DNA of 29,892 nt from UHGV virus genome UHGV-0256341. One strand, written 5' to 3'. Source of the stretch: a virus. This document shows, one piece after another, positions 8,262 to 29,892 of this stretch; positions within the stretch are counted from its first letter, which is position 1; the number at the start of each line of letters is the position of its first letter. A program made the translations under genes and the position numbers. The notes below the pieces were generated by a model. It was not told where the DNA came from and did no database searches. It was given only the letters and a program-made list of their open reading frames with translations.

Positions 8262-9068
8262 ATGAGTGTTATGAATCCAATAAGTTCTAATATATTTAAT
8301 GCTGAATTTTTAAACACCCCGGCAGCGGCACTTGCCGCATGGATTTCCATTATTGGAGCTGTTATAACTTTGGTGACGATAGTTATAAGAGCACTATTCA
8401 AATATAGAAAATCTCATGATGTAATTTTGAAAAAATCAGGAATACCTGCGTTTATATTAAATTTTTTTCTTATACGAATATCATTAAAAAGGCTGCCTAC
8501 TATCACATGGGCTGAAAAATCAATCACGGTTCTCTTTTCACTTCTTTTTTTGTGTGCAATTTATATTTTTGGTCCAGTTTTCATCCAAGCCATTAGAACC
8601 CCACCAAATAGCACATTGCTTTATTGGATAAAGTCCGGTGAATCATTTTATATGTCAAAAAAACTGGCGACTGCAGCTACAATATTAACCACTCCTGATT
8701 GGGAAATATCAAAAGATGATTGCGAAGAGTCATCCTCTGCCAGTACAGAGAAGTACAAATCATTAACTATCGAACATAAAGAAATTCTTTGTAAACTACT
8801 AACCACTGATGAAGGGAATACTTACATTGATGAAGAAGTCAAGAATTTCGTTAAAGACAAATTCTTTATCTATTCCTTTGCCCCAACAACCATATTTATT
8901 CTATTATGGATTTCTTTGGGTTTTATACTGACCATTCACTATTCTAAAAAAGTTAGGAAATATATTCTGACTGAACAAAAAAATGCAATTCATTGGGCAT
9001 ATGGTGAATTCAAGACAGAAGGAATCTATTCAATATATCACGAGTTAGAACGTAAGACTCACCATTAA
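8262..9068 (+). CDS. AT-rich moron encoding a multi-pass membrane protein of unknown function
   Basis: 268 aa with several hydrophobic helices; the region from about 8160 to 9070 is visibly lower in GC than the flanking phage genes; opposite strand to the late operon; sits at the S/V junction where P2 has orf30. Confidence 0.7.
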   Translation: MSVMNPISSNIFNAEFLNTPAAALAAWISIIGAVITLVTIVIRALFKYRKSHDVILKKSGIPAFILNFFLIRISLKRLPTITWAEKSITVLFSLLFLCAIYIFGPVFIQAIRTPPNSTLLYWIKSGESFYMSKKLATAATILTTPDWEISKDDCEESSSASTEKYKSLTIEHKEILCKLLTTDEGNTYIDEEVKNFVKDKFFIYSFAPTTIFILLWISLGFILTIHYSKKVRKYILTEQKNAIHWAYGEFKTEGIYSIYHELERKTHH

Positions 9069-17384: not shown

Positions 17385-17402
17385 GAAGACCATTAGGTCT
17401 TC
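17385..17402. terminator. Hairpin between convergent Q and retron RT (possible bidirectional terminator)
   Basis: GAAGACC-ATTA-GGTCTTC stem-loop with T-rich flank; the RT stop codon lies inside the stem. Confidence 0.45.
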
Positions 17403-18355
17403 GCTTTATTTAAAGGGTTCTTTCCATATTTTTTTTCTAATTTGCTAATATAAGTTATTAATCTTCTATGGCTTTTTGAATCCACACTTAAAATAAATGA
17501 CAACCATCCCCTAACGTGTTCTATCTCAGAAGACTTACCGCAAAATATATGATGTATCTTTGCTCTAATTTCTTTATATTTTTCTCTACCTATCCCAACT
17601 TTCTCTTGTGAAATAACTAAACCTGTAACTTTCCTCTGACTACGAGGCCCACTAATACAAGTTTTTTTTGAGTTAATAACCAATCCTTCACTTGGGATTA
17701 TAGAAAATAAAAAATCACGTGCTTTAACAACCTTTTTCATAGACTGTGCAGATAAGGTGAGATCATCGGCATATCTCGTATATATCAAGCCCCGACTACC
17801 TGCATAACCCTGAATACGATAATCAAGTTTAGAACATATTAGATTAGCTAATTTAGGTGATGATGGAGCACCTTGTGGTAGCAGATTTTTATAACAACAT
17901 ATTTTTGTCAAAACTGAAGATATTAGTCGATTATAACCAAGAGAATGGAACACTCCAAAAACTTTGTTAGCAGTTAAACTTGGGAAAAAATCCTCCAAAT
18001 CAATATTCAGTATAAAGTTTGCCCCAATATGCGGGGTAGCATTATTCAAAATAGATTGGTGCTTTTCAAATCCAATAGAAAAAGGAGATGACGACAGTTT
18101 ATCTAAAATGTTACGTAGAACCCATCCTTGTAAGGCTTTAAGTTCTCGAGAAGGTTGGTAAATGGTTCTCATTCTCTTCTCTGGGCCTTTCTTTTCTACA
18201 GTGTAGATCCTATAGCGAAAATCAGCTGTATAGATTAACAACCGAAGTGTTTCAACAGATATGCGAGTCGCCTTAGACATGTCATGCAAATTGTTCATGA
18301 CAGGTAGGCCGAGATTTCTCAATCTAAAAGTGTTCAAATATTCAGCGGATTTCAT
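17393..18355 (-). CDS. ret: Retron-type reverse transcriptase (matches retron Ec86/Eco1 RT from memory)
   Basis: 320 aa with retron hallmarks: NAxxH (NATPH), LEDFFPS, PQGAPSSPKLANL, catalytic YADD and the VTG motif. It lies immediately 3' of an msr-msd element. Confidence 0.95.
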   Translation of the reverse strand: MKSAEYLNTFRLRNLGLPVMNNLHDMSKATRISVETLRLLIYTADFRYRIYTVEKKGPEKRMRTIYQPSRELKALQGWVLRNILDKLSSSPFSIGFEKHQSILNNATPHIGANFILNIDLEDFFPSLTANKVFGVFHSLGYNRLISSVLTKICCYKNLLPQGAPSSPKLANLICSKLDYRIQGYAGSRGLIYTRYADDLTLSAQSMKKVVKARDFLFSIIPSEGLVINSKKTCISGPRSQRKVTGLVISQEKVGIGREKYKEIRAKIHHIFCGKSSEIEHVRGWLSFILSVDSKSHRRLITYISKLEKKYGKNPLNKAKT

Positions 18356-18361
18356 GAAAGT

Positions 18362-18530
18362 TGCGCACCCTTACGTCAGAAAAAACGGGTTTCCTGGTTG
18401 GCTCGGAGAGCATCAGGCGATGCTCTCCGTTCCAACAAGGAAAACAGACAGTAACTCAGATTCAATGCAGGATGCCGAAACAACATCCAGAGGTTGACCT
18501 TAATGATAAACCTCTCGCTAAGGGTGCGCA
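18362..18530 (-). ncRNA. msr-msd: Retron msr-msd non-coding RNA (msDNA template)
   Basis: Perfect 12-bp terminal inverted repeats (TGCGCACCCTTA ... TAAGGGTGCGCA on the minus strand) flank a long internal palindrome (GGAGAGCATC...GATGCTCTCC); the sequence matches the Ec86 ncRNA as I remember it. Confidence 0.9.
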
Positions 18531-19441
18531 TACGGAATCTTATCATAGTTAAATGTTGATTTTCTACGGTTTTCAAAATTCATAATCTCAAGCCGCAATC
18601 GGTCAAGTGTCTTTCTATCAAAGACGCTCCTAACATAGCTAGCCCCCAAAGCAGTGACCTGATAACCATCAGTCATTTGAAGTATTTTTCGTTCATTTAT
18701 TAGACGAGAAACAACGGATCTAACAATAATTTTAGATAAAACATCATCTTGCTTTATCGCTTTAAAAGCTAGTTCACACAGTGTGCGGTAGTTGACACTA
18801 TCCAGTAAATAGATACAAGGCAATAGAAACCGCTCTGCGTATAATATATTTCCAATATCTTTTGATACTTTATTTTCTTTCCTAACCTTCTTAATAGATG
18901 CCATTAATTTTTTATATAATCGTAATTTTCTGGCAACATCAATGGATGAATCACACATTTCTTTTAGTTCATTTGAACTACAACGCAAAACAGATTTTGA
19001 ATTAAACTTACGCAACAGGCGAACAGGACCATAGTTAATAAAGCTACGTTTTGATTTAAATTTTGCATCTTGAATGCAAATCAACTTTCTCCTTAAGTTT
19101 TCATTATTAGAGAACGCACCAAGCTCTGTGAAAGACCCCGGACTTTCAGGAAATAAAATTATTACATCGACAGCTTCAGCCAGAATATTTTCTAAACTTA
19201 AAAGGCTATGCTGCCCTTGACCAGCCAAAAGATCATCAAATAGATCTTCTGGATAAAATATATCAACATCACTGAACTTTGCTAAAAATTGTGATAATTG
19301 ATGACGCCAAGATTGATGATTAGCAACGTCACCACCACATAGAAAAATGGTTATTTTAATATTAGCTCCTCGATAGAAGCCTTTCTTTGTGAGATGTCCT
19401 ATAAGCTGTTGTTGCTGCTCATCGGTAAATTTTTTATTCAT
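18518..19441 (-). CDS. Retron effector protein (NDT-like / DNA-binding type, as in retron Eco1)
   Basis: 307 aa encoded immediately upstream of msr-msd in the same operon. The N-terminal half has a Rossmann-like glycine-rich pattern consistent with a nucleoside deoxyribosyltransferase-like fold; the C-terminal half is basic. Confidence 0.8.
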   Translation of the reverse strand: MNKKFTDEQQQQLIGHLTKKGFYRGANIKITIFLCGGDVANHQSWRHQLSQFLAKFSDVDIFYPEDLFDDLLAGQGQHSLLSLENILAEAVDVIILFPESPGSFTELGAFSNNENLRRKLICIQDAKFKSKRSFINYGPVRLLRKFNSKSVLRCSSNELKEMCDSSIDVARKLRLYKKLMASIKKVRKENKVSKDIGNILYAERFLLPCIYLLDSVNYRTLCELAFKAIKQDDVLSKIIVRSVVSRLINERKILQMTDGYQVTALGASYVRSVFDRKTLDRLRLEIMNFENRRKSTFNYDKIPYAHP

Positions 19442-19493: not shown

Positions 19494-19514
19494 TCTCCAT
19501 ACCACATGGCGCGC

Positions 19515-19534
19515 GCTCGTATCCCCGCCACGCC
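19515..19534 (-). other. Putative cos site (cohesive-end core) of the P2-like phage
   Basis: Minus strand reads GGCGTGGCGGGGATACGAGC, similar to the P2/186 cohesive end (GGCGAGGCGGGGAAAGCAC in P2) as I recall it. Position is on the Q side of the genome as in P2. Confidence 0.45.
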
Positions 19535-19578
19535 TGCCCGCTTTGTGTAGTGGTTTTCATGCACCTGCATGACATAAG

Positions 19579-19603
19579 CAAAAGCCCGCCAGCTCTGGCG
19601 GGC
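19579..19603 (-). terminator. Rho-independent terminator downstream of the HNH gene
   Basis: GC-rich perfect inverted repeat GCCCGCCAG/CTGGCGGGC followed on the minus strand by TTTTGCTT. Confidence 0.5.
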
Positions 19604-19716
19604 ATCAGCAAAAACGATCCTCAAACGATCATGCGATTTCATGCGGCATAGACATGCGTTGGCAAAAATGTACGAAATACTCAGCTTATAGGAAATGGTC
19701 TTTTTCCAACCTCCAG

Positions 19717-20436
19717 TTAGCCAAAGCAGAAACCAATATTGCAATTTGAAACTCCACAGTTGTGAAATTGATGTGGACCTACTCTTAGCTTGTGTTCGTC
19801 TCCTACAATCCGAGTCCCCTTAACCAACATATCTAATCTTTCCACAATCAATCTTTCAGGCGCATCAACTTTAATAATTAAACGAGGACCTTTCCTTTTT
19901 TCTATAATAGTTATTCTAGGACCGACAACCTGAACATCCCAATGCCTTGCACTACAAACCCACTCATTCTTAATTAATTCAAGATTAACAATACCTTGAC
20001 TATCGTAAAATTTACCCGAAATAAGAAAAGCATTATTTTCTTTTTCAATGGTTAACAATGGCTCATTTTGAAACATTATTGGTACAGTACAGGATTCAAA
20101 CGTCGCACCACCAAATATTATTGTTGGATGCCTATCAGAAAAGTCCAATATATCGGCCACATTCCCTTTTTGTAAGGCTGCAGGAGATTCCATTGCTTTA
20201 ATTATTTTCTCTTTAGAGTAAAGACGTTTCGTTACTTTCGCATGGCACGTAGGACAAAGTAGTGCTATTGCATTTGGAGAGTGCTCCTTTGCATCAGCGT
20301 ATGTGGGAATTACATGCTCATACTCAACAATGGGAGAAGCACAAACAACGCAACCGAAGCCACAGCGCTGCCTTACCTCCAGTTTTACAGGTTCAGGAAT
20401 TGTTCTAGATAACCCATGCTTGTTAATAGTTGTCAT
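19717..20436 (-). CDS. HNH-endonuclease-domain protein with a C-terminal domain of unknown function
   Basis: 239 aa; N-terminal CGFGCVVC ... EYEHVIP ... NAIALLCPTCH matches the HNH zinc-finger nuclease pattern. AT-rich gene located between cos and replication gene A, where P2 has old/tin. Confidence 0.75.
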   Translation of the reverse strand: MTTINKHGLSRTIPEPVKLEVRQRCGFGCVVCASPIVEYEHVIPTYADAKEHSPNAIALLCPTCHAKVTKRLYSKEKIIKAMESPAALQKGNVADILDFSDRHPTIIFGGATFESCTVPIMFQNEPLLTIEKENNAFLISGKFYDSQGIVNLELIKNEWVCSARHWDVQVVGPRITIIEKRKGPRLIIKVDAPERLIVERLDMLVKGTRIVGDEHKLRVGPHQFHNCGVSNCNIGFCFG

Positions 20437-20558
20437 AACCTTACCTTAAAACTTCGAGAAACCTTTTATATATTGATACTATATCAACTAACGCCTCGCA
20501 CAGCTCGTTGTTCAACCTTGCTGACGCCAGAAGCAAGTTCAGACGCCAGCAACGTTTC

Positions 20559-20793
20559 TTAATGCAGCCAGCTGTCGTCTTCCCACACCTTCTGCATAAT
20601 TTTCATCACTTGCTTCCTTTCTTCGTCCAGTTGCAGTCCGGTCAGTTCCACACCGTTAGAGCTACCTTTGCGGATGCGAATTACCGTTTTTGGATACAGG
20701 GGGCGCAGATTGCGGTAAAGCTCGGATTCAAGGGCGTCCAGGGTAGACTGGCTAATCTTCTGCTCTTTATCGATCATTATTTCAATGCGCATA
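20559..20793 (-). CDS. DinI-like protein
   Basis: Start taken at the internal ATG preceded by a GAGGTG ribosome-binding site. The 78 aa product (MRIEIMIDKEQ ... VWEDDSWLH) resembles DinI in length and in N- and C-terminal motifs. Confidence 0.6.
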
Positions 20794-20802
20794 AAAGTCA
20801 CC

Positions 20803-20991
20803 TCAGCTGATGACATCCATTGAGCGGTTGTATTCGTGGGTTCTGATTTTTGCCATGAGTTCATCTGTCAGTTCAGAAACCCACTGCAAAGCCAGCCCCT
20901 TCTCTTCATCACTACACTCACTAGCCGCTACAAGTTTAAGAAAAAAATCAATGCGCTGGAGCTTCAAAGACTCCAAAAAATAGTCCTGCAT
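20803..20991 (-). CDS. Small hypothetical protein (62 aa)
   Basis: Internal ATG with a strong AGGAGG ribosome-binding site 5 nt upstream; the longer 96 aa ORF start has none. Confidence 0.45.
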   Translation of the reverse strand: MQDYFLESLKLQRIDFFLKLVAASECSDEEKGLALQWVSELTDELMAKIRTHEYNRSMDVIS

Positions 20992-21144
20992 CTTTCCTCC
21001 TATGACACCACAAGCAATACTGTATGTATAACCACTGTTTATATTTACAGTATATAATAATCTTACTGATGTAAAACGTTTTTTTACGTTCATCAGCCTG
21101 ATATGCCTGGTATTATTAAGAGCACGAATTGTTAACCCGCGTAA

Positions 21145-23559
21145 TTAATACAGGTTTCGCCACTTATCATCTTCCTGCAAACGCTGGTTCCGATAGAAGA
21201 TACGCAGGCCTGCTCCTGACGGAATACTGCCGCCGCGAAGGAGTAAATCGACCTCTTTCTCGCTGCCATCAAATCCTCTGGACTTCAGTTCATAGACGAG
21301 CTGCTGTCGCTGATGGTCTGTAATTCGCTGTTTGTAGTCTTTACGCCGTTTCGGTTTCACCAGGCGTAACCTTGCAGCTAGTTCCCGGCGCTCTTTTTTG
21401 CTCATACTGTGCAGGTAATCGTGCAACGCCTTGTCATCCATGCGGGTAATGTCCGTCCTGGTATCCCCATCAGCTGATTTGTCTTTCCCTTGTTGGTTCA
21501 AATTTTCAGCAAGGGGACAGTTATTGCCACGAGTCCAAGGGGCGCAAGCGCCCTGGTCGGCTGCCGCCTCCTGAACGTCAACGGCTTTACGAACCATTTT
21601 CCACTTCACTGCATGAGTGCAGATCTTGCCCTCTGCAATGGGTGACCAGATGCCATAAATACGAATGCCGTGATCGCCATAGGCGGTCGGCTCTTCGTTG
21701 ATTTCATAAGCGGTTCTGATGAGGTGATATTTACGGGGAACCAGTACGCCGCCCTGCTTCATGATGTAGGTGGCAAAACAACCAGCATCAGCAGCAGCCA
21801 GGATGGCATCAAGGCGCGGGTTATCCAGTACCGGCGCACCTGCTTTTTTGTCCCCCTTTTGCCTTACCGCCTGACCAGCCAGCAATCGCAGTTCACGGTA
21901 AGCCTGACGCCCCGGAATGCCAAAGAAGCGGAATTGCTGAACACGATGCAAAGACGCCCAGGCATTCACGTATTCAGCGTTATCACGCAGAGATTTACCC
22001 GTTTCCTTGCTGATCTCGCCAGCCAGACCACGCCCGTCAATGTTCTTACTGATGTATTTCGCTATGTAGCTTGTCGGCGTTCCTTTGCGCGGGTTAATCA
22101 GCTCAGACTTAAAGCGCGGCCCCGTGTTATTGCCCAGCTCCTCGCGGTCTTCACGGATAGCAAACTTACGCAACAATGCTGTAATGGCGCGGCGGTCTTT
22201 TTTGCGCATGAAACACAACAGGTGCCAGTGAACTGTGCCGTCGTGATGCGGCTCAGCCACCCGCACGCCATACCAGCGCAACCCGGCTTTGTGCATCGCC
22301 TTACGAAATGCAGCAAACATACCGACCAGATAATCGCTGCTTTGTCTTACCGTCGCATTTGTCCAGGTCGGATTGGGCCTGCCGTTATTTAGCGTGGAAT
22401 GGAAACGTGACGGACAGGTGATGGTGTAGAAAACGGCGCAGTCACCGCGCATTTCCGCGATAAGCTCCAGACCTTTAACACAGGCCATCATCTCATTGCG
22501 GCGATGCGCAGGGTTGCTGCTGCTGGCGTTTACCACATCCTCCATGTCTAGCGTGTCGCCGTCTTCGTTCACCAGTTCATGAGAACGGAAAAACTCCAGC
22601 GACTTACGGCGCTGCTCACGTTTATGCAACACGGCTTCATAGCTGACATAGGGAGATGCTTTTTTGCTGACAAGGCAGACAGCACGCAACTGCTCTTCCC
22701 GCCATTCGCAACGCATCTTCCATAATTTCCGATACCACCAGTCGGCGCACAACATACGCGCCAGCGAACCCGGAATGAGTTCATAGGGCACGGGTTTACG
22801 GCGGTTTCTTTTCCGACGGAGTTGCTCAAACGCAGGCGGGATGACATCCAGACGCAGGGTTTCCGCTGCCACCCTTTCCCATGTATTGCGGATTTCTTCT
22901 GGCTTAACGTCATCGGTGGCATACAAATCGCCACAAGCGGCATCAAGGCACATACTCATATGCGCAGCTACCAGGGTGGACAGGCGTTTCACCTGATCCT
23001 GACTCATTTCAGGCAGGATCAGCAGGCCGTCCAGCCCTTCATGGCTTGCCATAAAGCGAAAAGATGCAGATAGCTGACTGTCGCGTACATGCTCCAGTCG
23101 TTCCAGACATGGCTTAATCGTCTCACGTAAATAGCGGGAATAAGCCTTTGGCCTGCCCAGGCTGCTGAAGTATTCAATACGTTGCATCAGCGGCTTGCTG
23201 ATATGGGAAGGCTGGGCGTTGACGTCCGCCAGAATGACCATATCCGGATTAAAACGCTGCTGCTCATGCGCCAGCTTTGCCCGACTAATGAGCTTATCCT
23301 GTTCCATTTCGCGCTGGACAGGATCACGGGATTCATTAAAGAAATAACGCTCCCAGACCTGATCACTCAGCGCCTCACGGCGCAGCTGTTCCTGCTCGTT
23401 ATCGGCAGCGTACAGAGTGATCAGGTTTGAAAGCGTAGAAACCGGCGCAACTTCCACCGGGTCCAGATAAGGGTTAATGGCCTTTTTCGGGCTGTTCCAT
23501 GAGAACGATGCGGCAGCTTCGTTAAAGCCGCAGCAGTTGTTCATATCGGCATGACTCAT
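21145..23559 (-). CDS. A: Replication initiation endonuclease, P2 gpA-like (rolling-circle initiator)
   Basis: 804 aa, the largest early gene; start overlaps the stop of the upstream methyltransferase gene. Confidence 0.85.
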
Positions 23560-25476: not shown

Positions 25477-27162
25477 GTGAATATAAACGTCGCCGAATTG
25501 TTAAATGGGAATTACATTCTGTTATTATTTGTGGTCCTCGCGCTTGGGCTATGTCTCGGAAAGTTACGACTTGGTTCGATCCAACTGGGTAATTCCATTG
25601 GCGTTTTAGTCGTATCGCTGTTATTAGGCCAACAACATTTCAGCATTAACACCGATGCGCTTAATCTTGGCTTTATGCTGTTTATTTTCTGTGTTGGGGT
25701 TGAAGCCGGACCGAACTTTTTTTCCATTTTTTTTCGCGATGGGAAAAATTACCTAATGTTAGCACTGGTGATGGTTGGCAGTGCGCTGGTGATCGCCTTA
25801 GGGTTAGGTAAGCTGTTTGGCTGGGATATTGGCCTGACGGCCGGTATGTTAGCAGGCTCTATGACGTCGACACCGGTTCTGGTCGGTGCTGGCGATACAC
25901 TGCGTCATTCCGGCATGGAAAGCAGGCAGCTCTCACTGGCACTGGATAATCTGAGCCTCGGGTATGCCTTAACCTATTTAATCGGTCTGGTGAGTTTGAT
26001 TGTTGGTGCGCGTTACTTGCCGAAATTGCAGCATCAGGACTTACAGACCAGCGCCCAGCAAATCGCCCGCGAACGTGGCCTGGACACTGATGCCAACCGT
26101 AAGGTTTATTTACCGGTGATCCGCGCCTATCGCGTCGGCCCGGAGCTGGTGGCCTGGACCGACGGCAAAAATCTGCGTGAACTGGGTATTTATCGACAAA
26201 CCGGCTGCTACATTGAACGTATTCGACGTAACGGGATTCTGGCAAATCCAGACGGTGATGCCGTGCTACAAATGGGCGATGAAATAGCGTTGGTAGGCTA
26301 TCCCGACGCCCATGCCCGACTCGATCCCAGCTTCCGTAACGGTAAAGAAGTTTTCGATCGTGACCTTCTCGACATGCGTATCGTCACTGAAGAAGTGGTC
26401 GTTAAAAACCATAACGCTGTAGGTAAACGTCTCGCACAACTGAAGTTGACCGATCACGGTTGCTTCCTTAACCGCGTCATTCGTAGCCAGATTGAGATGC
26501 CGATAGATGACAACGTCGTGCTTAACAAAGGTGACGTTTTACAAGTCAGCGGTGATGCCCGTCGCGTAAAAACCATCGCCGATCGCATCGGCTTTATCTC
26601 GATTCACAGCCAGGTCACTGACCTGCTGGCATTTTGCGCCTTCTTTGTTATTGGGCTGATGATCGGGATGATCACCTTCCAGTTCAGCACATTCAGTTTC
26701 GGCATGGGGAACGCTGCCGGGTTGTTATTCGCCGGAATTATGCTGGGCTTTATGCGTGCTAACCACCCGACCTTCGGTTACATTCCGCAGGGTGCATTAA
26801 GCATGGTGAAAGAGTTCGGCTTGATGGTGTTTATGGCAGGCGTTGGTCTGAGCGCCGGTAGCGGTATTAATAACGGCCTGGGCGCGATTGGCGGTCAGAT
26901 GTTGATTGCCGGATTGATTGTCAGTCTGGTGCCCGTGGTTATCTGTTTCTTGTTCGGTGCTTATGTATTGCGAATGAACCGCGCGCTGTTGTTCGGCGCA
27001 ATGATGGGCGCACGTACCTGCGCGCCGGCAATGGAGATCATCAGTGATACAGCTCGCAGTAACATCCCGGCGCTGGGCTATGCGGGCACCTATGCAATCG
27101 CCAACGTCCTGCTGACGCTGGCAGGGACAATCATCGTCATGGTATGGCCAGGATTAGGATAA
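25477..27162 (+). CDS. ybjL: Putative transport protein of the AAE (YbjL/YidE) family
   Basis: 561 aa with multiple transmembrane segments flanking a central soluble region; GC content is typical of the host chromosome; the sequence looks like E. coli YbjL from memory. Confidence 0.8.
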
Positions 27163-27274
27163 AACTGAAGTTGCCCTGAAAATGAAATTTTTTTGCACAA
27201 CCGCAGAACTTTTCCGCAGGGCATCAGTCTTAATTAGTGCCACTGCTTTTCTTTGATGTCCCCATTTTGTGGAG

Positions 27275-27320
27275 CCCATCAACCCCGCCATTTCGGTTCA
27301 AGGTTGATGGGTTTTTTGTT
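27275..27320 (+). terminator. Putative rho-independent terminator
   Basis: CCCATCAACC ... GGTTGATGGG stem followed by TTTTTTGTT. Confidence 0.4.
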
Positions 27321-27706: not shown

Positions 27707-28807
27707 TCATTCCATTTCGAAATCATCAATCTTCACTTCAAGCTCCAGACTGGTCGTAAAACCGTTATCCGGGCTGACAGTATGCGTCAGGGTGGTAATA
27801 GTCCATTCCGCATCATCTATCGGCTGTTTAAAGCCACTGACTTTCACTGGCATTTCCGTGTAGAGATCTGCCCGCCCTTCCGCCAGTTGTAGCGAGAATG
27901 ACGCAACGCCGCGTTGCAGGCGTTCCCACTGCATTTTCGCCGCTCGTTCGGCGTTGCTCCGGTTGGCATAAGTGCGATTAAGTACCAGCACGTTTTCATC
28001 CGTACCCACCAGGTAATCGCCCTGCTTCGCTTCCGGCTCTTTCTTCTGCTTCTTAGTTCTGCGCTTACGCTTCACCGTGGTGCTTTCTTTCTTCGCAGGT
28101 TCGCGGGTATGCAACCAGCTGGCAATTACGCCCGTGTAGGCTCCGCGATCTGCCAGGGTAAATCGGTGACTGTCGCCGTCCTTGCGTGTGATAGTGATCA
28201 CTGGCAGAGGTTTACCAGTGGCGCTTTTGCCCTGCCCCTGCCTGATGAATAACAGATTGCCATTTTTCACCGACGCGATGGCACCGTACTGTCGCGCCAG
28301 CCGCATCAGAAAACTGCCGTCACTCTCATTAGTCTGGTCTATATGCTCCACGGGCTTATCCGACAGGTCTTTACCCAGTGCCATCTTCAGCTTGTGCCGC
28401 GCGGCTATTTCCTTCACCACTTCCCCGACGGTGGTCTTATGCCACGATTTTTCACGGCGGGTATTCAGCGTTTCCCGAAAATCAGCACTTCGCGCCCGGA
28501 TAGTCAGGCGGTCCGGTGCGCCAGTGTGTTCAATCTCGTCCACTGTGAATGCCCCTTTCGGGAAAAGCGGCTGCCCCTTCCAGCCCAGCGCCAGCGTAAT
28601 GACCGCACCACGGCGCGGCAGCACGATTTTTCCATCGGCGTCGTCCAGCTCCAGATCAAGCTGGTCCGCTTCAAAGCCCCGGTTATCCGTCAGCGTCAAA
28701 CTCATCAGGCGGTTATCCAGCACAGTGGTGATATCCCTGCCCTCAATACTGATGCTGAATGCGGGAGTTTTGTTGCCTTTGTTAAGCAGTTCTGAGCTGA
28801 AATTCAC
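27707..28807 (-). CDS. D: Tail protein D, P2 gpD-like
   Basis: 366 aa between U and ogr. Confidence 0.85.
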   Translation of the reverse strand: MNFSSELLNKGNKTPAFSISIEGRDITTVLDNRLMSLTLTDNRGFEADQLDLELDDADGKIVLPRRGAVITLALGWKGQPLFPKGAFTVDEIEHTGAPDRLTIRARSADFRETLNTRREKSWHKTTVGEVVKEIAARHKLKMALGKDLSDKPVEHIDQTNESDGSFLMRLARQYGAIASVKNGNLLFIRQGQGKSATGKPLPVITITRKDGDSHRFTLADRGAYTGVIASWLHTREPAKKESTTVKRKRRTKKQKKEPEAKQGDYLVGTDENVLVLNRTYANRSNAERAAKMQWERLQRGVASFSLQLAEGRADLYTEMPVKVSGFKQPIDDAEWTITTLTHTVSPDNGFTTSLELEVKIDDFEME

Positions 28808-29289
28808 GACAGCAGCCCTCCCACCGTTTTACTGATATCACTTAAGGCAGACGTTGCCGTGTCCTGCAGATTATTCAGTTGCGCACTGAGATCACCGAAC
28901 ATATCGGACAGGGATTCATCCACCCGTTTGAGCGACAGGGTGAACTCAATCCGGCGCGGCATACCGTCGCGGAAAAACTCCGTTTTAGTCTGATTCAGTC
29001 CCTCAATCACATACATGCCGTAAATCGTGCCGCTGCCTTCAATCAGGGGCCATGCTTTCCCCTGTTCTGCCATCTGCTCCAGTGCCAGCAACGACAGCCT
29101 GCCGCCTGTTATCTCCGGCATAAGAACACCGGAAAGCGTCAGCATGTCGTTTTCCGGTCCCAGAAACTGCGTGGACGGACGTCGGTTTACCCGACTGTTT
29201 GCCGCATGTCGCCAGCTGCGTTGATACTGCAGTTCCTGATACGGAACGGTGCGCAGCATAAACACGTACAATCCCAGCACCATCATCAT
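28804..29289 (-). CDS. U: Tail protein U, P2 gpU-like
   Basis: 161 aa between T and D. Confidence 0.8.
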   Translation of the reverse strand: MMMVLGLYVFMLRTVPYQELQYQRSWRHAANSRVNRRPSTQFLGPENDMLTLSGVLMPEITGGRLSLLALEQMAEQGKAWPLIEGSGTIYGMYVIEGLNQTKTEFFRDGMPRRIEFTLSLKRVDESLSDMFGDLSAQLNNLQDTATSALSDISKTVGGLLS

Positions 29290-29892
29290 GCGTCGTATCC
29301 CCCCTGATCGCTGTAGTTACTCCTGGCTTTTGCCTTCAGCCTGCGTTCACGTTCATCAAGCTGGCGTGCCACCTCCCGCGCAATATCCTGCGCACTTTGT
29401 CCTGGCTGCGTCTGAATGATGATCTGCGTCGGTGCCTCAATCCGTTGAACGAGCGGCACAGTGGCTGCGCGACTCACAATTGCTTCTCCACCTTTCGCGG
29501 GAAGTGCCAAAGGGTGCAACGGTGGAAGCTCTGCTGGCGCGGCAGCAACGCCCATCATTCCGGCAACAACGGCAGCCAGTGCAGCTGTATTTCTCCGGCT
29601 GGTCACATTTGCCGGGCCGTTAACAATTTCCGGCCCGTTTTCACCGACGATGCCAAACTGCCCGCGCGGGATATACCCGCCGCTGTCATACATCCCCGCA
29701 AAGCCATATCCCCATGATGGAAAACCACCCGATGGCATCATCACTTTGCCGTCTGCATTCACCGTCGCAGGTTGCTGACGCGTCACGCTTTCCGGTAGTT
29801 TTGCCTTTGCGGCCTCTTTACTGACAATGCCGAGTTTCTCCAGCAACCAGGAAACGCCGGATTTCAGGGAGTCCAGCGGATGCATGACCATA
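29286..29892 (-). CDS. T: Tail tape measure protein, P2 gpT-like, C-terminal part only (gene runs off right edge)
   Basis: Open frame to the window edge with Ala/Gly/Pro-rich sequence; directly upstream of U. Confidence 0.7.
   Translation of the reverse strand, partial: MVMHPLDSLKSGVSWLLEKLGIVSKEAAKAKLPESVTRQQPATVNADGKVMMPSGGFPSWGYGFAGMYDSGGYIPRGQFGIVGENGPEIVNGPANVTSRRNTAALAAVVAGMMGVAAAPAELPPLHPLALPAKGGEAIVSRAATVPLVQRIEAPTQIIIQTQPGQSAQDIAREVARQLDERERRLKAKARSNYSDQGGYDA

What the first reader, a model, noticed from the sequence alone, without database searches (positions are those of the whole stretch)
19717..20436. Uncharacterised HNH-nuclease-domain protein at the position where P2 carries old/tin
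This 239 aa protein has a clear N-terminal HNH zinc-finger motif fused to about 170 aa that I cannot assign. It is AT-rich, has its own terminator, and sits between cos and replication gene A, a locus where P2-like phages are known to swap in anti-phage genes. It could be a single-gene defence nuclease. Alternatively, because it is about 180 bp from cos, it could be a packaging-associated HNH as in HK97-like phages.
Basis: partly seen in the sequence, partly recalled or inferred. Interest (0 to 1): 0.7.

Follow-up and report, generated by a model that had tools for sequence, protein, structure and literature searches.

The report
Untested HNH nuclease cargo in P2-like prophage
A real 239-aa gene joins an HNH DNA-cutting domain to a 150-aa all-beta domain of unknown kind; it is swappable cargo in the known anti-phage hotspot of P2-like prophages, was already catalogued there but never tested, and is a reasonable but unproven defence candidate.

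Summary
Window 19717-20436 (-) encodes a 239-aa protein, RefSeq WP_000207842, with a zinc-finger HNH nuclease domain (aa ~1-90). The rest is an all-beta domain (aa ~91-239) with no relative in Pfam or the PDB. It is an 830-bp, AT-rich, single-gene cassette (19658-20487) in the cos-proximal hotspot of a 186/P2-like prophage, about 180 bp from cos. It is accessory: 21 of 5426 complete E. coli genomes carry it, while 1255 carry the flanking cos backbone. Unrelated cargo uses the same junctions.

The terminator is not its own. It belongs to the conserved backbone, and the cassette sits between a LexA-box operon (orf62 and a DinI/Tum-like gene) and that terminator.

Orthologues occupy the same slot in Citrobacter, Cronobacter and Hafnia (dN/dS 0.045). 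More distant relatives lie in other prophage moron sites, on plasmids and near defence genes.

The packaging-HNH idea is rejected. A defence or exclusion nuclease is the best reading (~0.5) but is unproven.

Rousset et al. 2022 (Table S5B, system 159, "HNH, likely a nuclease") list this exact protein, and I found no sign that they tested it. Interest is moderate.

The parts
19717..20436 (-). ORF for the 239-aa HNH protein (WP_000207842)
   Evidence: PHROG phrog_6544 matches full length at 2.5e-111
20167..20436 (-). N-terminal HNH (beta-beta-alpha-metal) zinc-finger nuclease domain with helical linker, aa 1-90. C29, C32, H41, H52 and C61 are invariant; C64 is nearly so
19720..20166 (-). C-terminal all-beta meander domain, aa 91-239, about 17 consecutive hairpin strands. 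N157, W166, D167 and M203 are invariant. No known relative
19658..20487 (.). 830-bp single-gene cargo cassette, defined against an empty-slot prophage. GC 0.376
20473..20487 (.). Perfect palindrome TTGATACTATATCAA at the upstream cassette junction. Function unknown
   Evidence: read from the sequence
19584..19603 (-). Terminator-like hairpin followed by a T run, in the conserved backbone downstream of the cassette
19509..19657 (.). Conserved cos-proximal backbone of P2-like phages. GGCGTGGCGGGG at 19523-19534 (-)
   Evidence: That this motif is the start of the phage 186 cohesive end is from my memory
20559..20792 (-). DinI/Tum-like gene (backbone), immediately upstream on the same strand
   Evidence: Pfam DinI 1.3e-22; RefSeq WP_001217575
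21035..21050 (.). Perfect LexA box CTGTTTATATTTACAG upstream of orf62 and the DinI-like gene. A box at this position is conserved in 7 loci from 4 genera
17393..19441 (-). Neighbouring but independent cargo on the Q side of cos: type II-A retron (NDT effector 18518-19441, non-coding RNA gap, RT 17393-18355), i.e. retron Ec86/Eco1
   Evidence: PADLOC NDT_II-A 2.7e-94 and RT_II-A 7.1e-128; 99.9-100% identical to E. coli B strains

Best explanation
The gene is a horizontally swapped accessory nuclease of P2/186-like prophages. Its most likely role is in conflict between mobile elements, as an anti-phage or exclusion effector. The N-terminal zinc-finger HNH domain would cut DNA. The conserved C-terminal beta domain, which is neutral in this protein (net charge 0) and mildly acidic on average across the family, and which is always fused to the HNH, would act as the controlling or recognition module. 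It would keep the nuclease inactive or untargeted until a foreign cue appears. That would explain how a lone nuclease can be carried without a methylase, antitoxin or immunity gene. The cassette sits between the LexA-box operon (orf62 and the DinI/Tum-like gene) and that operon's terminator, and has no recognisable sigma-70 promoter of its own. It is therefore probably transcribed at least partly by read-through, which would make it SOS-inducible.

Shown: the ORF, the HNH domain, the cassette borders, the accessory distribution, purifying selection on both domains, and recurrence in mobile-element hotspots.

Inferred: nuclease activity, the sensor role of the C-terminal domain, the defence phenotype and SOS co-transcription.
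For: - The HNH match is above Pfam's threshold, and the catalytic His and both CxxC pairs are invariant or nearly so in 60 diverse relatives.
- The full-length model is confident (pLDDT 94.2), and its HNH part superposes on Cap5, IscB, McrA and GVE2 HNH.
- The location is the published P2 defence hotspot between gpA and gpQ (PMC9122126).
- The cassette is in 21/5426 complete genomes, all >=99.4% identical. The backbone is in 1255.
- The neighbouring Q-side slot independently carries a retron, AIPR, TIR-like, RES, RT or AAA_15/21 cargo.
- Orthologues at 86%, 61% and 53% identity occupy the same slot in Citrobacter, Cronobacter and Hafnia. dN/dS against Citrobacter is 0.045 overall, 0.038 for the HNH part and 0.048 for the C-terminal part.
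- Relatives at 40-46% identity sit in the lambdoid nin/ren region, the P2-like S-V slot, the Q-side slot of a Pseudomonas P2-like prophage beside a RelE/XRE pair, Acinetobacter plasmids beside BrnTA and an AAA_15/21 pair, and a prophage beside a DUF6602 protein. DUF6602 is the family of the validated defence system DS-18. One relative lies beside a type III restriction-modification system.
- In 37 species-representative loci, roughly 28 or more of 296 sampled ORFs within 10 kb appear to hit PADLOC models. This count is my own estimate from the tool's per-model summaries. The hits include type I R-M, DpdF, PsyrT, LmuA, MADS, HerA and PDC-S29.
- Some members carry TPR or SEC-C extensions.
- A LexA box is conserved upstream in 4 genera. 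No promoter or terminator was found between the DinI-like gene and the HNH gene.
Against: - No experiment exists for this protein.
- No PADLOC, NCBIfam or defence-library model matches beyond the HNH motif.
- Immediate neighbours across phyla are heterogeneous and often housekeeping-like. My neighbour count has no genome-wide baseline.
- In both 186-like and lambdoid prophages the gene lies in the sense orientation of SOS or early lytic operons. That fits expression during induction rather than in the resting lysogen.
- The C-terminal domain was found with no other effector domain, so it lacks the domain shuffling typical of defence sensors.
- A 301-aa E. coli 'HNH endonuclease' (WP_252151320.1) tested in the DefensePredictor study was not defensive. 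I do not know whether it belongs to this family.
Confidence: 0.5

Rival explanations
1. A lytic-cycle helper nuclease that works for the phage itself. It would be expressed on SOS induction or as an early gene. It would act on host, competitor-prophage or satellite (P4-like) DNA, or in recombination or replication, rather than protecting the lysogen.
Against: It is present in only 21 of ~1255 related E. coli prophage-bearing genomes, so the phage does not need it. Relatives occur on small plasmids, in chromosomal arrays of small genes and beside R-M systems outside any phage. The resemblance to Ref is limited to the generic HNH core.
Confidence: 0.2
2. A modification-dependent (type IV) restriction endonuclease. 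The C-terminal domain would read a modified base or backbone on incoming DNA, and the HNH domain would cut nearby. Unmodified host DNA would be spared, so no partner gene is needed.
Against: The C-terminal domain has no similarity to SRA, EVE/PUA or the McrA N-terminal reader folds. Its net charge averages -3.3 across 60 members (0 in this protein), against +4.5 for the HNH part, which is unusual for a DNA reader. The domain order is the reverse of the known enzymes. The PADLOC hit covers only the HNH motif.
Confidence: 0.15
3. A free-standing HNH homing endonuclease. This would be a selfish gene that spreads by cutting the empty site in related phages and being copied in during repair.
For: It is a compact single-gene cassette with precise borders in an intergenic site of a phage genome. 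All E. coli copies are near-identical. Relatives lie in intergenic sites of several phage types. HNH is a common homing-endonuclease fold (BFVD hits).
Against: An unrelated cargo gene uses the same junctions (19657 and 20485/20488), so the site is a general swap slot. No NUMOD, IENR, AP2 or HTH DNA-binding module was found, and the C-terminal domain is neutral to acidic. Both domains are under strong purifying selection over deep divergence (dN/dS 0.045). Relatives are also on plasmids and in chromosomes.
Confidence: 0.07
4. A packaging-associated HNH, as in HK97-like phages, that assists terminase cutting at cos.
For: It lies only ~183 bp from the cos motif.
Against: It is absent from ~98% of E. 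coli genomes that carry the same cos backbone, and empty slots are common. The prophage has the usual P2 terminase pair: Phage_term_smal and Terminase_6 in relatives, and 'terminase endonuclease subunit' and 'terminase ATPase subunit' in RefSeq. Relatives lie far from any packaging genes, in the nin region, on plasmids and in chromosomes. At 239 aa with an extra beta domain it is unlike the ~100-120-aa packaging HNH proteins (that size is from my own knowledge).
Confidence: 0.02

Closest known systems
P2-hotspot 'system 159: HNH' in Rousset et al. 2022 (Cell Host Microbe, PMC9122126, Table S5B)
   Same: Identical amino-acid sequence and the same locus between gpA and gpQ. It is listed with 11 occurrences and the comment 'Likely a nuclease'.
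   Different: It is only a catalogue entry. The sequence does not appear in the paper's table of systems evaluated for defence (Table S2), and the main text names only other P2 systems as validated. No domain analysis of the C-terminal part is given.
P2 old and tin (phage-exclusion genes of P2)
   Same: Same genomic position, between gene A and cos. All are accessory, AT-rich, swappable cargo.
   Different: No sequence or domain relationship. Old is an ATPase-TOPRIM nuclease, whereas this protein is an HNH plus a beta domain, and PADLOC gives no Old-type hit.
CBASS effector Cap5 (HNH-SAVED)
   Different: The C-terminal domain here is an all-beta meander, not a SAVED/CARF-like fold. No cyclase gene is nearby.
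Type IV HNH restriction enzymes (EcoKMcrA, ScoMcrA, TagI, VcaM4I)
   Different: In those enzymes the reader domain is N-terminal and of a known fold. Here the extra domain is C-terminal, unassigned, and neutral to acidic.
HK97 gp74-type packaging HNH
   Same: An HNH fold and closeness to cos.
   Different: This gene is not conserved among its phage relatives, is twice the size, and has relatives unlinked to packaging genes.
Septu PtuB and the retron type I-A HNH (TIGR02646)
   Different: There is no PtuA-type ATPase partner and no TIGR02646 match. The neighbouring retron is type II-A with its own NDT effector and assorts independently.

Membership tests
HNH (beta-beta-alpha-metal) endonuclease superfamily | Sequence match to the HNH profile above the curated threshold | tested here: met
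   PF01844, 24.8 bits against a cut-off of 21.4, aa 29-71. Seven of the ten PHROG families matched are annotated HNH endonuclease.
HNH (beta-beta-alpha-metal) endonuclease superfamily | Conserved catalytic His and metal- or zinc-binding residues | tested here: met
   E40-H41, H52, C29/C32 and C61/C64 are invariant or nearly so in 60 relatives. Position 65 is His or Asn. The alignment to IscB places YEH on YHH and CPTCH on CPKCH.
HNH (beta-beta-alpha-metal) endonuclease superfamily | The beta-beta-alpha fold | tested here: met
HNH (beta-beta-alpha-metal) endonuclease superfamily | Metal-dependent nuclease activity | not testable with these tools
   This needs a biochemical assay.
Cargo of the P2 cos-proximal defence hotspot (Rousset 2022) | Located between gpA and gpQ next to cos, and variable among otherwise similar prophages | tested here: met
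   The exact protein is listed in Tables S5A and S5B.
Validated anti-phage defence system | Match to a known defence family model | tested here: not met
   PADLOC gives only mREase_IV at E 0.0095 and an 'Effector' model at 0.035, both over the HNH motif.
Validated anti-phage defence system | Experimental protection against phage | not testable with these tools
   No published test was found.
HK97-type packaging HNH | Conserved in all phages of the group and linked to the terminase genes | tested here: not met
   21 of ~1255 genomes with the cos backbone. Relatives lie in non-packaging contexts.
Type IV modification-dependent restriction enzyme | A recognisable modified-DNA reader domain (SRA, EVE/PUA, McrA-N, etc.) fused to the nuclease | tested here: not met
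CBASS Cap5 | A SAVED domain and a linked CD-NTase | tested here: not met
   The C-terminal domain is all-beta with no SAVED match. No cyclase is in the locus.
Septu PtuB / retron I-A HNH | TIGR02646-type HNH with an adjacent PtuA ATPase | tested here: not met
   No NCBIfam hit. No ATPase gene in the cassette.
Free-standing HNH homing endonuclease | A long-target DNA-binding module, and an insertion site specific to the element | tested here: not met
   No DNA-binding module was found and the C-terminal domain is neutral to acidic. Unrelated cargo uses the same junctions. Homing itself cannot be tested here.
Retron Eco1 (type II-A) system | Co-inheritance with the RT, the msr-msd RNA and the NDT effector | tested here: not met
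   The retron is in 48 genomes and the HNH cassette in 21. No complete genome combines them. The HNH also occurs alone.

The most novel reading that the evidence does not exclude
The protein is the E. coli representative of a large, unrecognised single-gene immunity family: an HNH nuclease gated by a previously undescribed all-beta sensor domain. The family has at least 1158 clusters at 50% identity with E<=1e-30, and relatives in 290 species-representative genomes from many bacterial phyla and one archaeon. In 186-like prophages it would be wired into the SOS/Tum induction operon. The nuclease would then be released when the cell is damaged or the prophage wakes, possibly to destroy competing phages or P4-like satellites that share the cos site.
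Probability: 0.3. Interest if true: 0.6.

Novelty: new variant of a known kind. Interest (0 to 1): 0.42.

Why it matters
If it is defensive, it would add a compact (720-bp) one-gene nuclease system with a new control domain to the catalogue. Current defence-annotation libraries miss this family entirely, although it is spread widely on prophages and plasmids. It would also give a concrete case of hotspot cargo placed under SOS control. If it is not defensive, it is a useful warning: position in a 'defence hotspot' plus a nuclease domain does not by itself establish immunity. Either way the gene is small, well delimited and easy to test.

Tried and rejected
- **Packaging HNH:** rejected on distribution and on the contexts of relatives.
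- **Part of the adjacent retron:** rejected, because the two assort independently.
- **Septu, Cap5 or type IV membership:** the defining partner domains or genes are absent.
- **The C-terminal domain with other effector domains:** a profile search found only HNH fusions. Apparent stand-alone 152-175-aa hits were checked for one case, which proved to be a mis-called start codon.
- **An own promoter:** none was found between the DinI-like stop codon and the HNH start codon (plus reading the sequence by eye).
- **Literature:** the RefSeq accession is in no main text. The DefensePredictor tables do not contain it. The 2026 NAR paper on P2/P4 hotspots does not mention HNH, and its supplements are not held.
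- **Rfam:** no retron msr family was detected at gathering threshold. The only hit was RybB.

Full report
**1. Is it there?**

Yes. An ORF of 239 aa runs on the minus strand from 20436 to 19717. Pfam's HNH model matches aa 29-71 above its gathering score (24.8 against 21.4 bits). RefSeq annotates the identical protein, WP_000207842, as 'HNH endonuclease' in other E. coli genomes. PHROGs has a full-length family for it, phrog_6544, of 'unknown function' (2.5e-111).

The ORF is AT-rich: GC is 0.383, against 0.514 for the window and 0.532 for gene A. It lies between gene A (21145-23559) and a conserved cos-proximal block (19509-19657). That block occurs in 1255 of 5426 complete E. coli genomes and in 84 P2-like phage records. 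The motif GGCGTGGCGGGG is at 19523-19534, 183 bp from the stop codon. From memory, this is the start of the phage 186 cohesive end.

**2. Anatomy of the protein**

An alignment of 60 relatives (A1) shows an invariant or near-invariant C29-x2-C32 ... E40-H41 ... H52 ... C61-x2-C64-(H/N)65. This is a zinc-finger HNH with its catalytic histidine intact.

AlphaFold2 with this alignment gives a confident model (pLDDT 94.2, pTM 0.86). Residues 1-90 form the HNH domain plus helices. Residues 92-238 form about 17 consecutive short beta strands.

- no Pfam family in any of 36 members beyond chance singletons;
- no PDB sequence match even at E<=10;
- no viral structure match.

It is neutral to mildly acidic: net charge averages -3.3 over 60 members and is 0 in this protein, against +4.5 (here +4) for the HNH part. 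That argues against a classical DNA-binding module.

A profile of the domain alone retrieves only ~245-aa HNH fusions. I checked one of the apparent 152-175-aa stand-alone hits, and it was a mis-called start codon. Some relatives add SEC-C, TPR or CxxCxxCC tails.

**3. Anatomy of the locus**

I compared the window with a prophage whose slot is empty (L016). The backbone stops at 19657 and resumes at 20488, with 9 nt between them in the empty site. The cargo is therefore an 830-bp single-gene cassette, 19658-20487. A different cargo, a 141-aa hypothetical on the other strand, uses the same junctions. The site is thus a general swap slot, not a site specific to this gene.

The only terminator-like hairpin on this strand (19603..19584) lies in the backbone.

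Upstream on the same strand are orf62 and a DinI/Tum-like gene (Pfam DinI 1.3e-22). They are preceded by a perfect LexA box at 21035-21050. A CTGT-N8-ACAG box is conserved at that position in seven loci from E. coli, Citrobacter, Hafnia and Cronobacter, with differing spacers. From my knowledge of phage 186, this matches the LexA-controlled p95-tum arrangement.

No sigma-70-like promoter or terminator lies between the DinI-like stop codon and the HNH start codon. The cassette therefore looks like an insertion between an SOS operon and its terminator. Read-through, and hence SOS-inducible transcription, is an inference and is not shown.

**4. Distribution**

The cassette is in 21 of 5426 complete E. 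coli genomes. All copies are >=99.4% identical, single-copy and chromosomal. In the five of these genomes I inspected it sits in the DinI-side slot each time.

The slot on the other side of cos varies independently:
- empty;
- an 89-aa ORF, an AIPR protein, or a 554-aa ORF;
- a TIR-like protein;
- in this window, a type II-A retron.

The retron is 99.9-100% identical to retron Ec86/Eco1 of E. coli B strains. No complete genome in the collection combines that retron with the HNH cassette.

Orthologues at 86% (Citrobacter), 61% (Cronobacter) and 53% (Hafnia) identity occupy the same slot of 186-like prophages. dN/dS against the Citrobacter copy is 0.045, and is similar for both domains. Both domains are therefore under strong purifying selection.

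More distant relatives (40-46% identity) are found in:
- the position just after the O/P replication genes of lambdoid prophages in E. coli, Enterobacter, Citrobacter and a Klebsiella phage;
- the S-V slot of an Erwinia P2-like prophage;
- the Q-side slot of a Pseudomonas P2-like prophage, next to a RelE/XRE pair;
- a Pseudomonas prophage near an SRA-McrA-like gene;
- small Acinetobacter plasmids near BrnTA and an AAA_15/21 pair;
- a prophage next to a DUF6602 protein, the family validated as DS-18;
- a site next to a type III R-M system;
- arrays of small same-strand genes.

The family is large and broad. There are 1158 clusters at 50% identity with E<=1e-30. Relatives occur in 290 species-representative genomes across many phyla.

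**5. Defence-neighbourhood check**

In 37 species-representative loci with full flanks, the four nearest ORFs per locus (148 in all) hit 35 PADLOC models. I estimate this as about 13 proteins, including PDC-S29, MADS, HerA, AriA, MzaA and a type II REase. Their Pfam content is otherwise heterogeneous.

The four farthest ORFs within 10 kb hit 207 models. These include type I R-M, DpdF, PsyrT, LmuA, MADS and a type IV RecD.

Together that is roughly 9% of the sampled ORFs. The protein counts are my own estimates from the tool's per-model summaries, which do not list hits per protein. The figure looks higher than I would expect for random genes, but I had no matched baseline. The result is suggestive only.

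**6. What is known**

Rousset et al. 2022 defined this gpA-gpQ region as a hotspot of anti-phage systems. Their Table S5A lists WP_000207842 as 'hypothetical' in several loci. Table S5B lists the exact sequence as system 159, 'HNH', 11 occurrences, 'Likely a nuclease'. The sequence does not appear in their table of systems evaluated for defence, and the text names only other validated P2 systems.

The accession appears in no other paper's main text and not in the DefensePredictor tables. That study did test an unrelated-or-related 301-aa 'HNH endonuclease' (WP_252151320.1). It was not defensive. I could not obtain its sequence, so I cannot say whether it belongs to this family.

**7. Interpretation**

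The packaging-HNH idea fails on distribution and on the contexts of relatives. Homing is unlikely: the junctions are shared with unrelated cargo, there is no DNA-binding module, and selection is strongly purifying.

The best reading is an accessory nuclease used in conflicts between mobile elements, with the C-terminal domain as its control or recognition module (confidence about 0.5). Two live variants remain:
- a phage-serving nuclease expressed at induction (0.2);
- a type IV-like enzyme with an unknown reader fold (0.15).

**8. Verdict**

The feature is real and correctly located. It is an uncharacterised two-domain HNH protein that is swappable cargo in a well-known hotspot. It has been catalogued but never tested. 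I rate it a new variant of a known kind, of moderate interest (0.42).

Noticed in passing
window 17393-19441 (-): A complete type II-A retron: NDT effector 18518-19441, a 162-bp gap for the non-coding RNA, and RT 17393-18355. It is 99.9-100% identical to retron Ec86/Eco1 of E. coli B/BL21 strains and is present in 48/5426 genomes. It occupies the Q-side slot of the same hotspot. No complete genome pairs it with the HNH cassette. Rfam did not detect an msr family at gathering threshold.
   Followed up: partly
window 21035-21050: A perfect LexA box, CTGTTTATATTTACAG, upstream of orf62 (20803-20991) and the DinI/Tum-like gene (20559-20792). A box at this position is conserved in 7 related loci from 4 genera. 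This implies SOS control of the operon into whose 3' end the HNH cassette is inserted.
   Followed up: partly
window 25380/25381: An abrupt junction. The middle of the prophage fil gene is joined to the host ybjM-ybjL intergenic region. Then follow ybjL (25477-27162), the RybB sRNA (27242-27320, Rfam 105 bits), ogr, and tail genes D, U and T (27707-29891). In ordinary genomes ybjL-rybB-ogr-D and the early region lie at opposite ends of this prophage. The window therefore looks like a tandem duplication junction, an aberrant excision circle or a permuted record. The cII-cI-int region is absent from it.
   Followed up: partly
window 8262-9068 (+): A 268-aa ORF (Pfam DUF6216, 1.5e-11; no PHROG or NCBIfam family) in a second AT-rich island (GC 0.33-0.38). 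It lies between baseplate gene V and tail gene S, on the opposite strand to the late genes. This is the P2 orf30 position (from my knowledge of P2). In an Erwinia P2-like prophage a relative of the HNH protein occupies this same slot (L009).
   Followed up: no
window 20473-20487: A perfect 15-bp palindrome, TTGATACTATATCAA, exactly at the upstream border of the cassette. It could be an operator, a recombination scar or chance in AT-rich DNA.
   Followed up: no
L036/L037/L038 (Chloroflexia MAG and relatives), 4770-5498 of L036: In this subclade the HNH gene is always followed, 115 bp downstream, by a ~290-aa Trypsin_2-like gene. In L036 it also sits next to a type III R-M pair (N6_N4_Mtase and ResIII). 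The gene caller had truncated the HNH ORF to 166 aa.
   Followed up: partly
L011 (Rhizobacter), L042, L045, L057, L059: Family members lie inside runs of small, unrelated, same-strand genes separated by 100-350 bp. This resembles integron cassette arrays. I did not search for attC sites or an integron integrase.
   Followed up: no
L012-L015 (Acinetobacter lwoffii plasmids): The 46%-identical relative is always followed, 64 bp downstream, by a conserved 119-aa ORF with no Pfam family. This may be a partner gene in that subclade. The E. coli cassette has no such ORF.
   Followed up: no
PMC13092281, Table S6: DefensePredictor cloned a 301-aa E. coli 'HNH endonuclease' (WP_252151320.1, working name HNH1) whose only remote homology was to the Cas9 HNH over 17% of its length. 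It was scored not defensive.
   Followed up: partly
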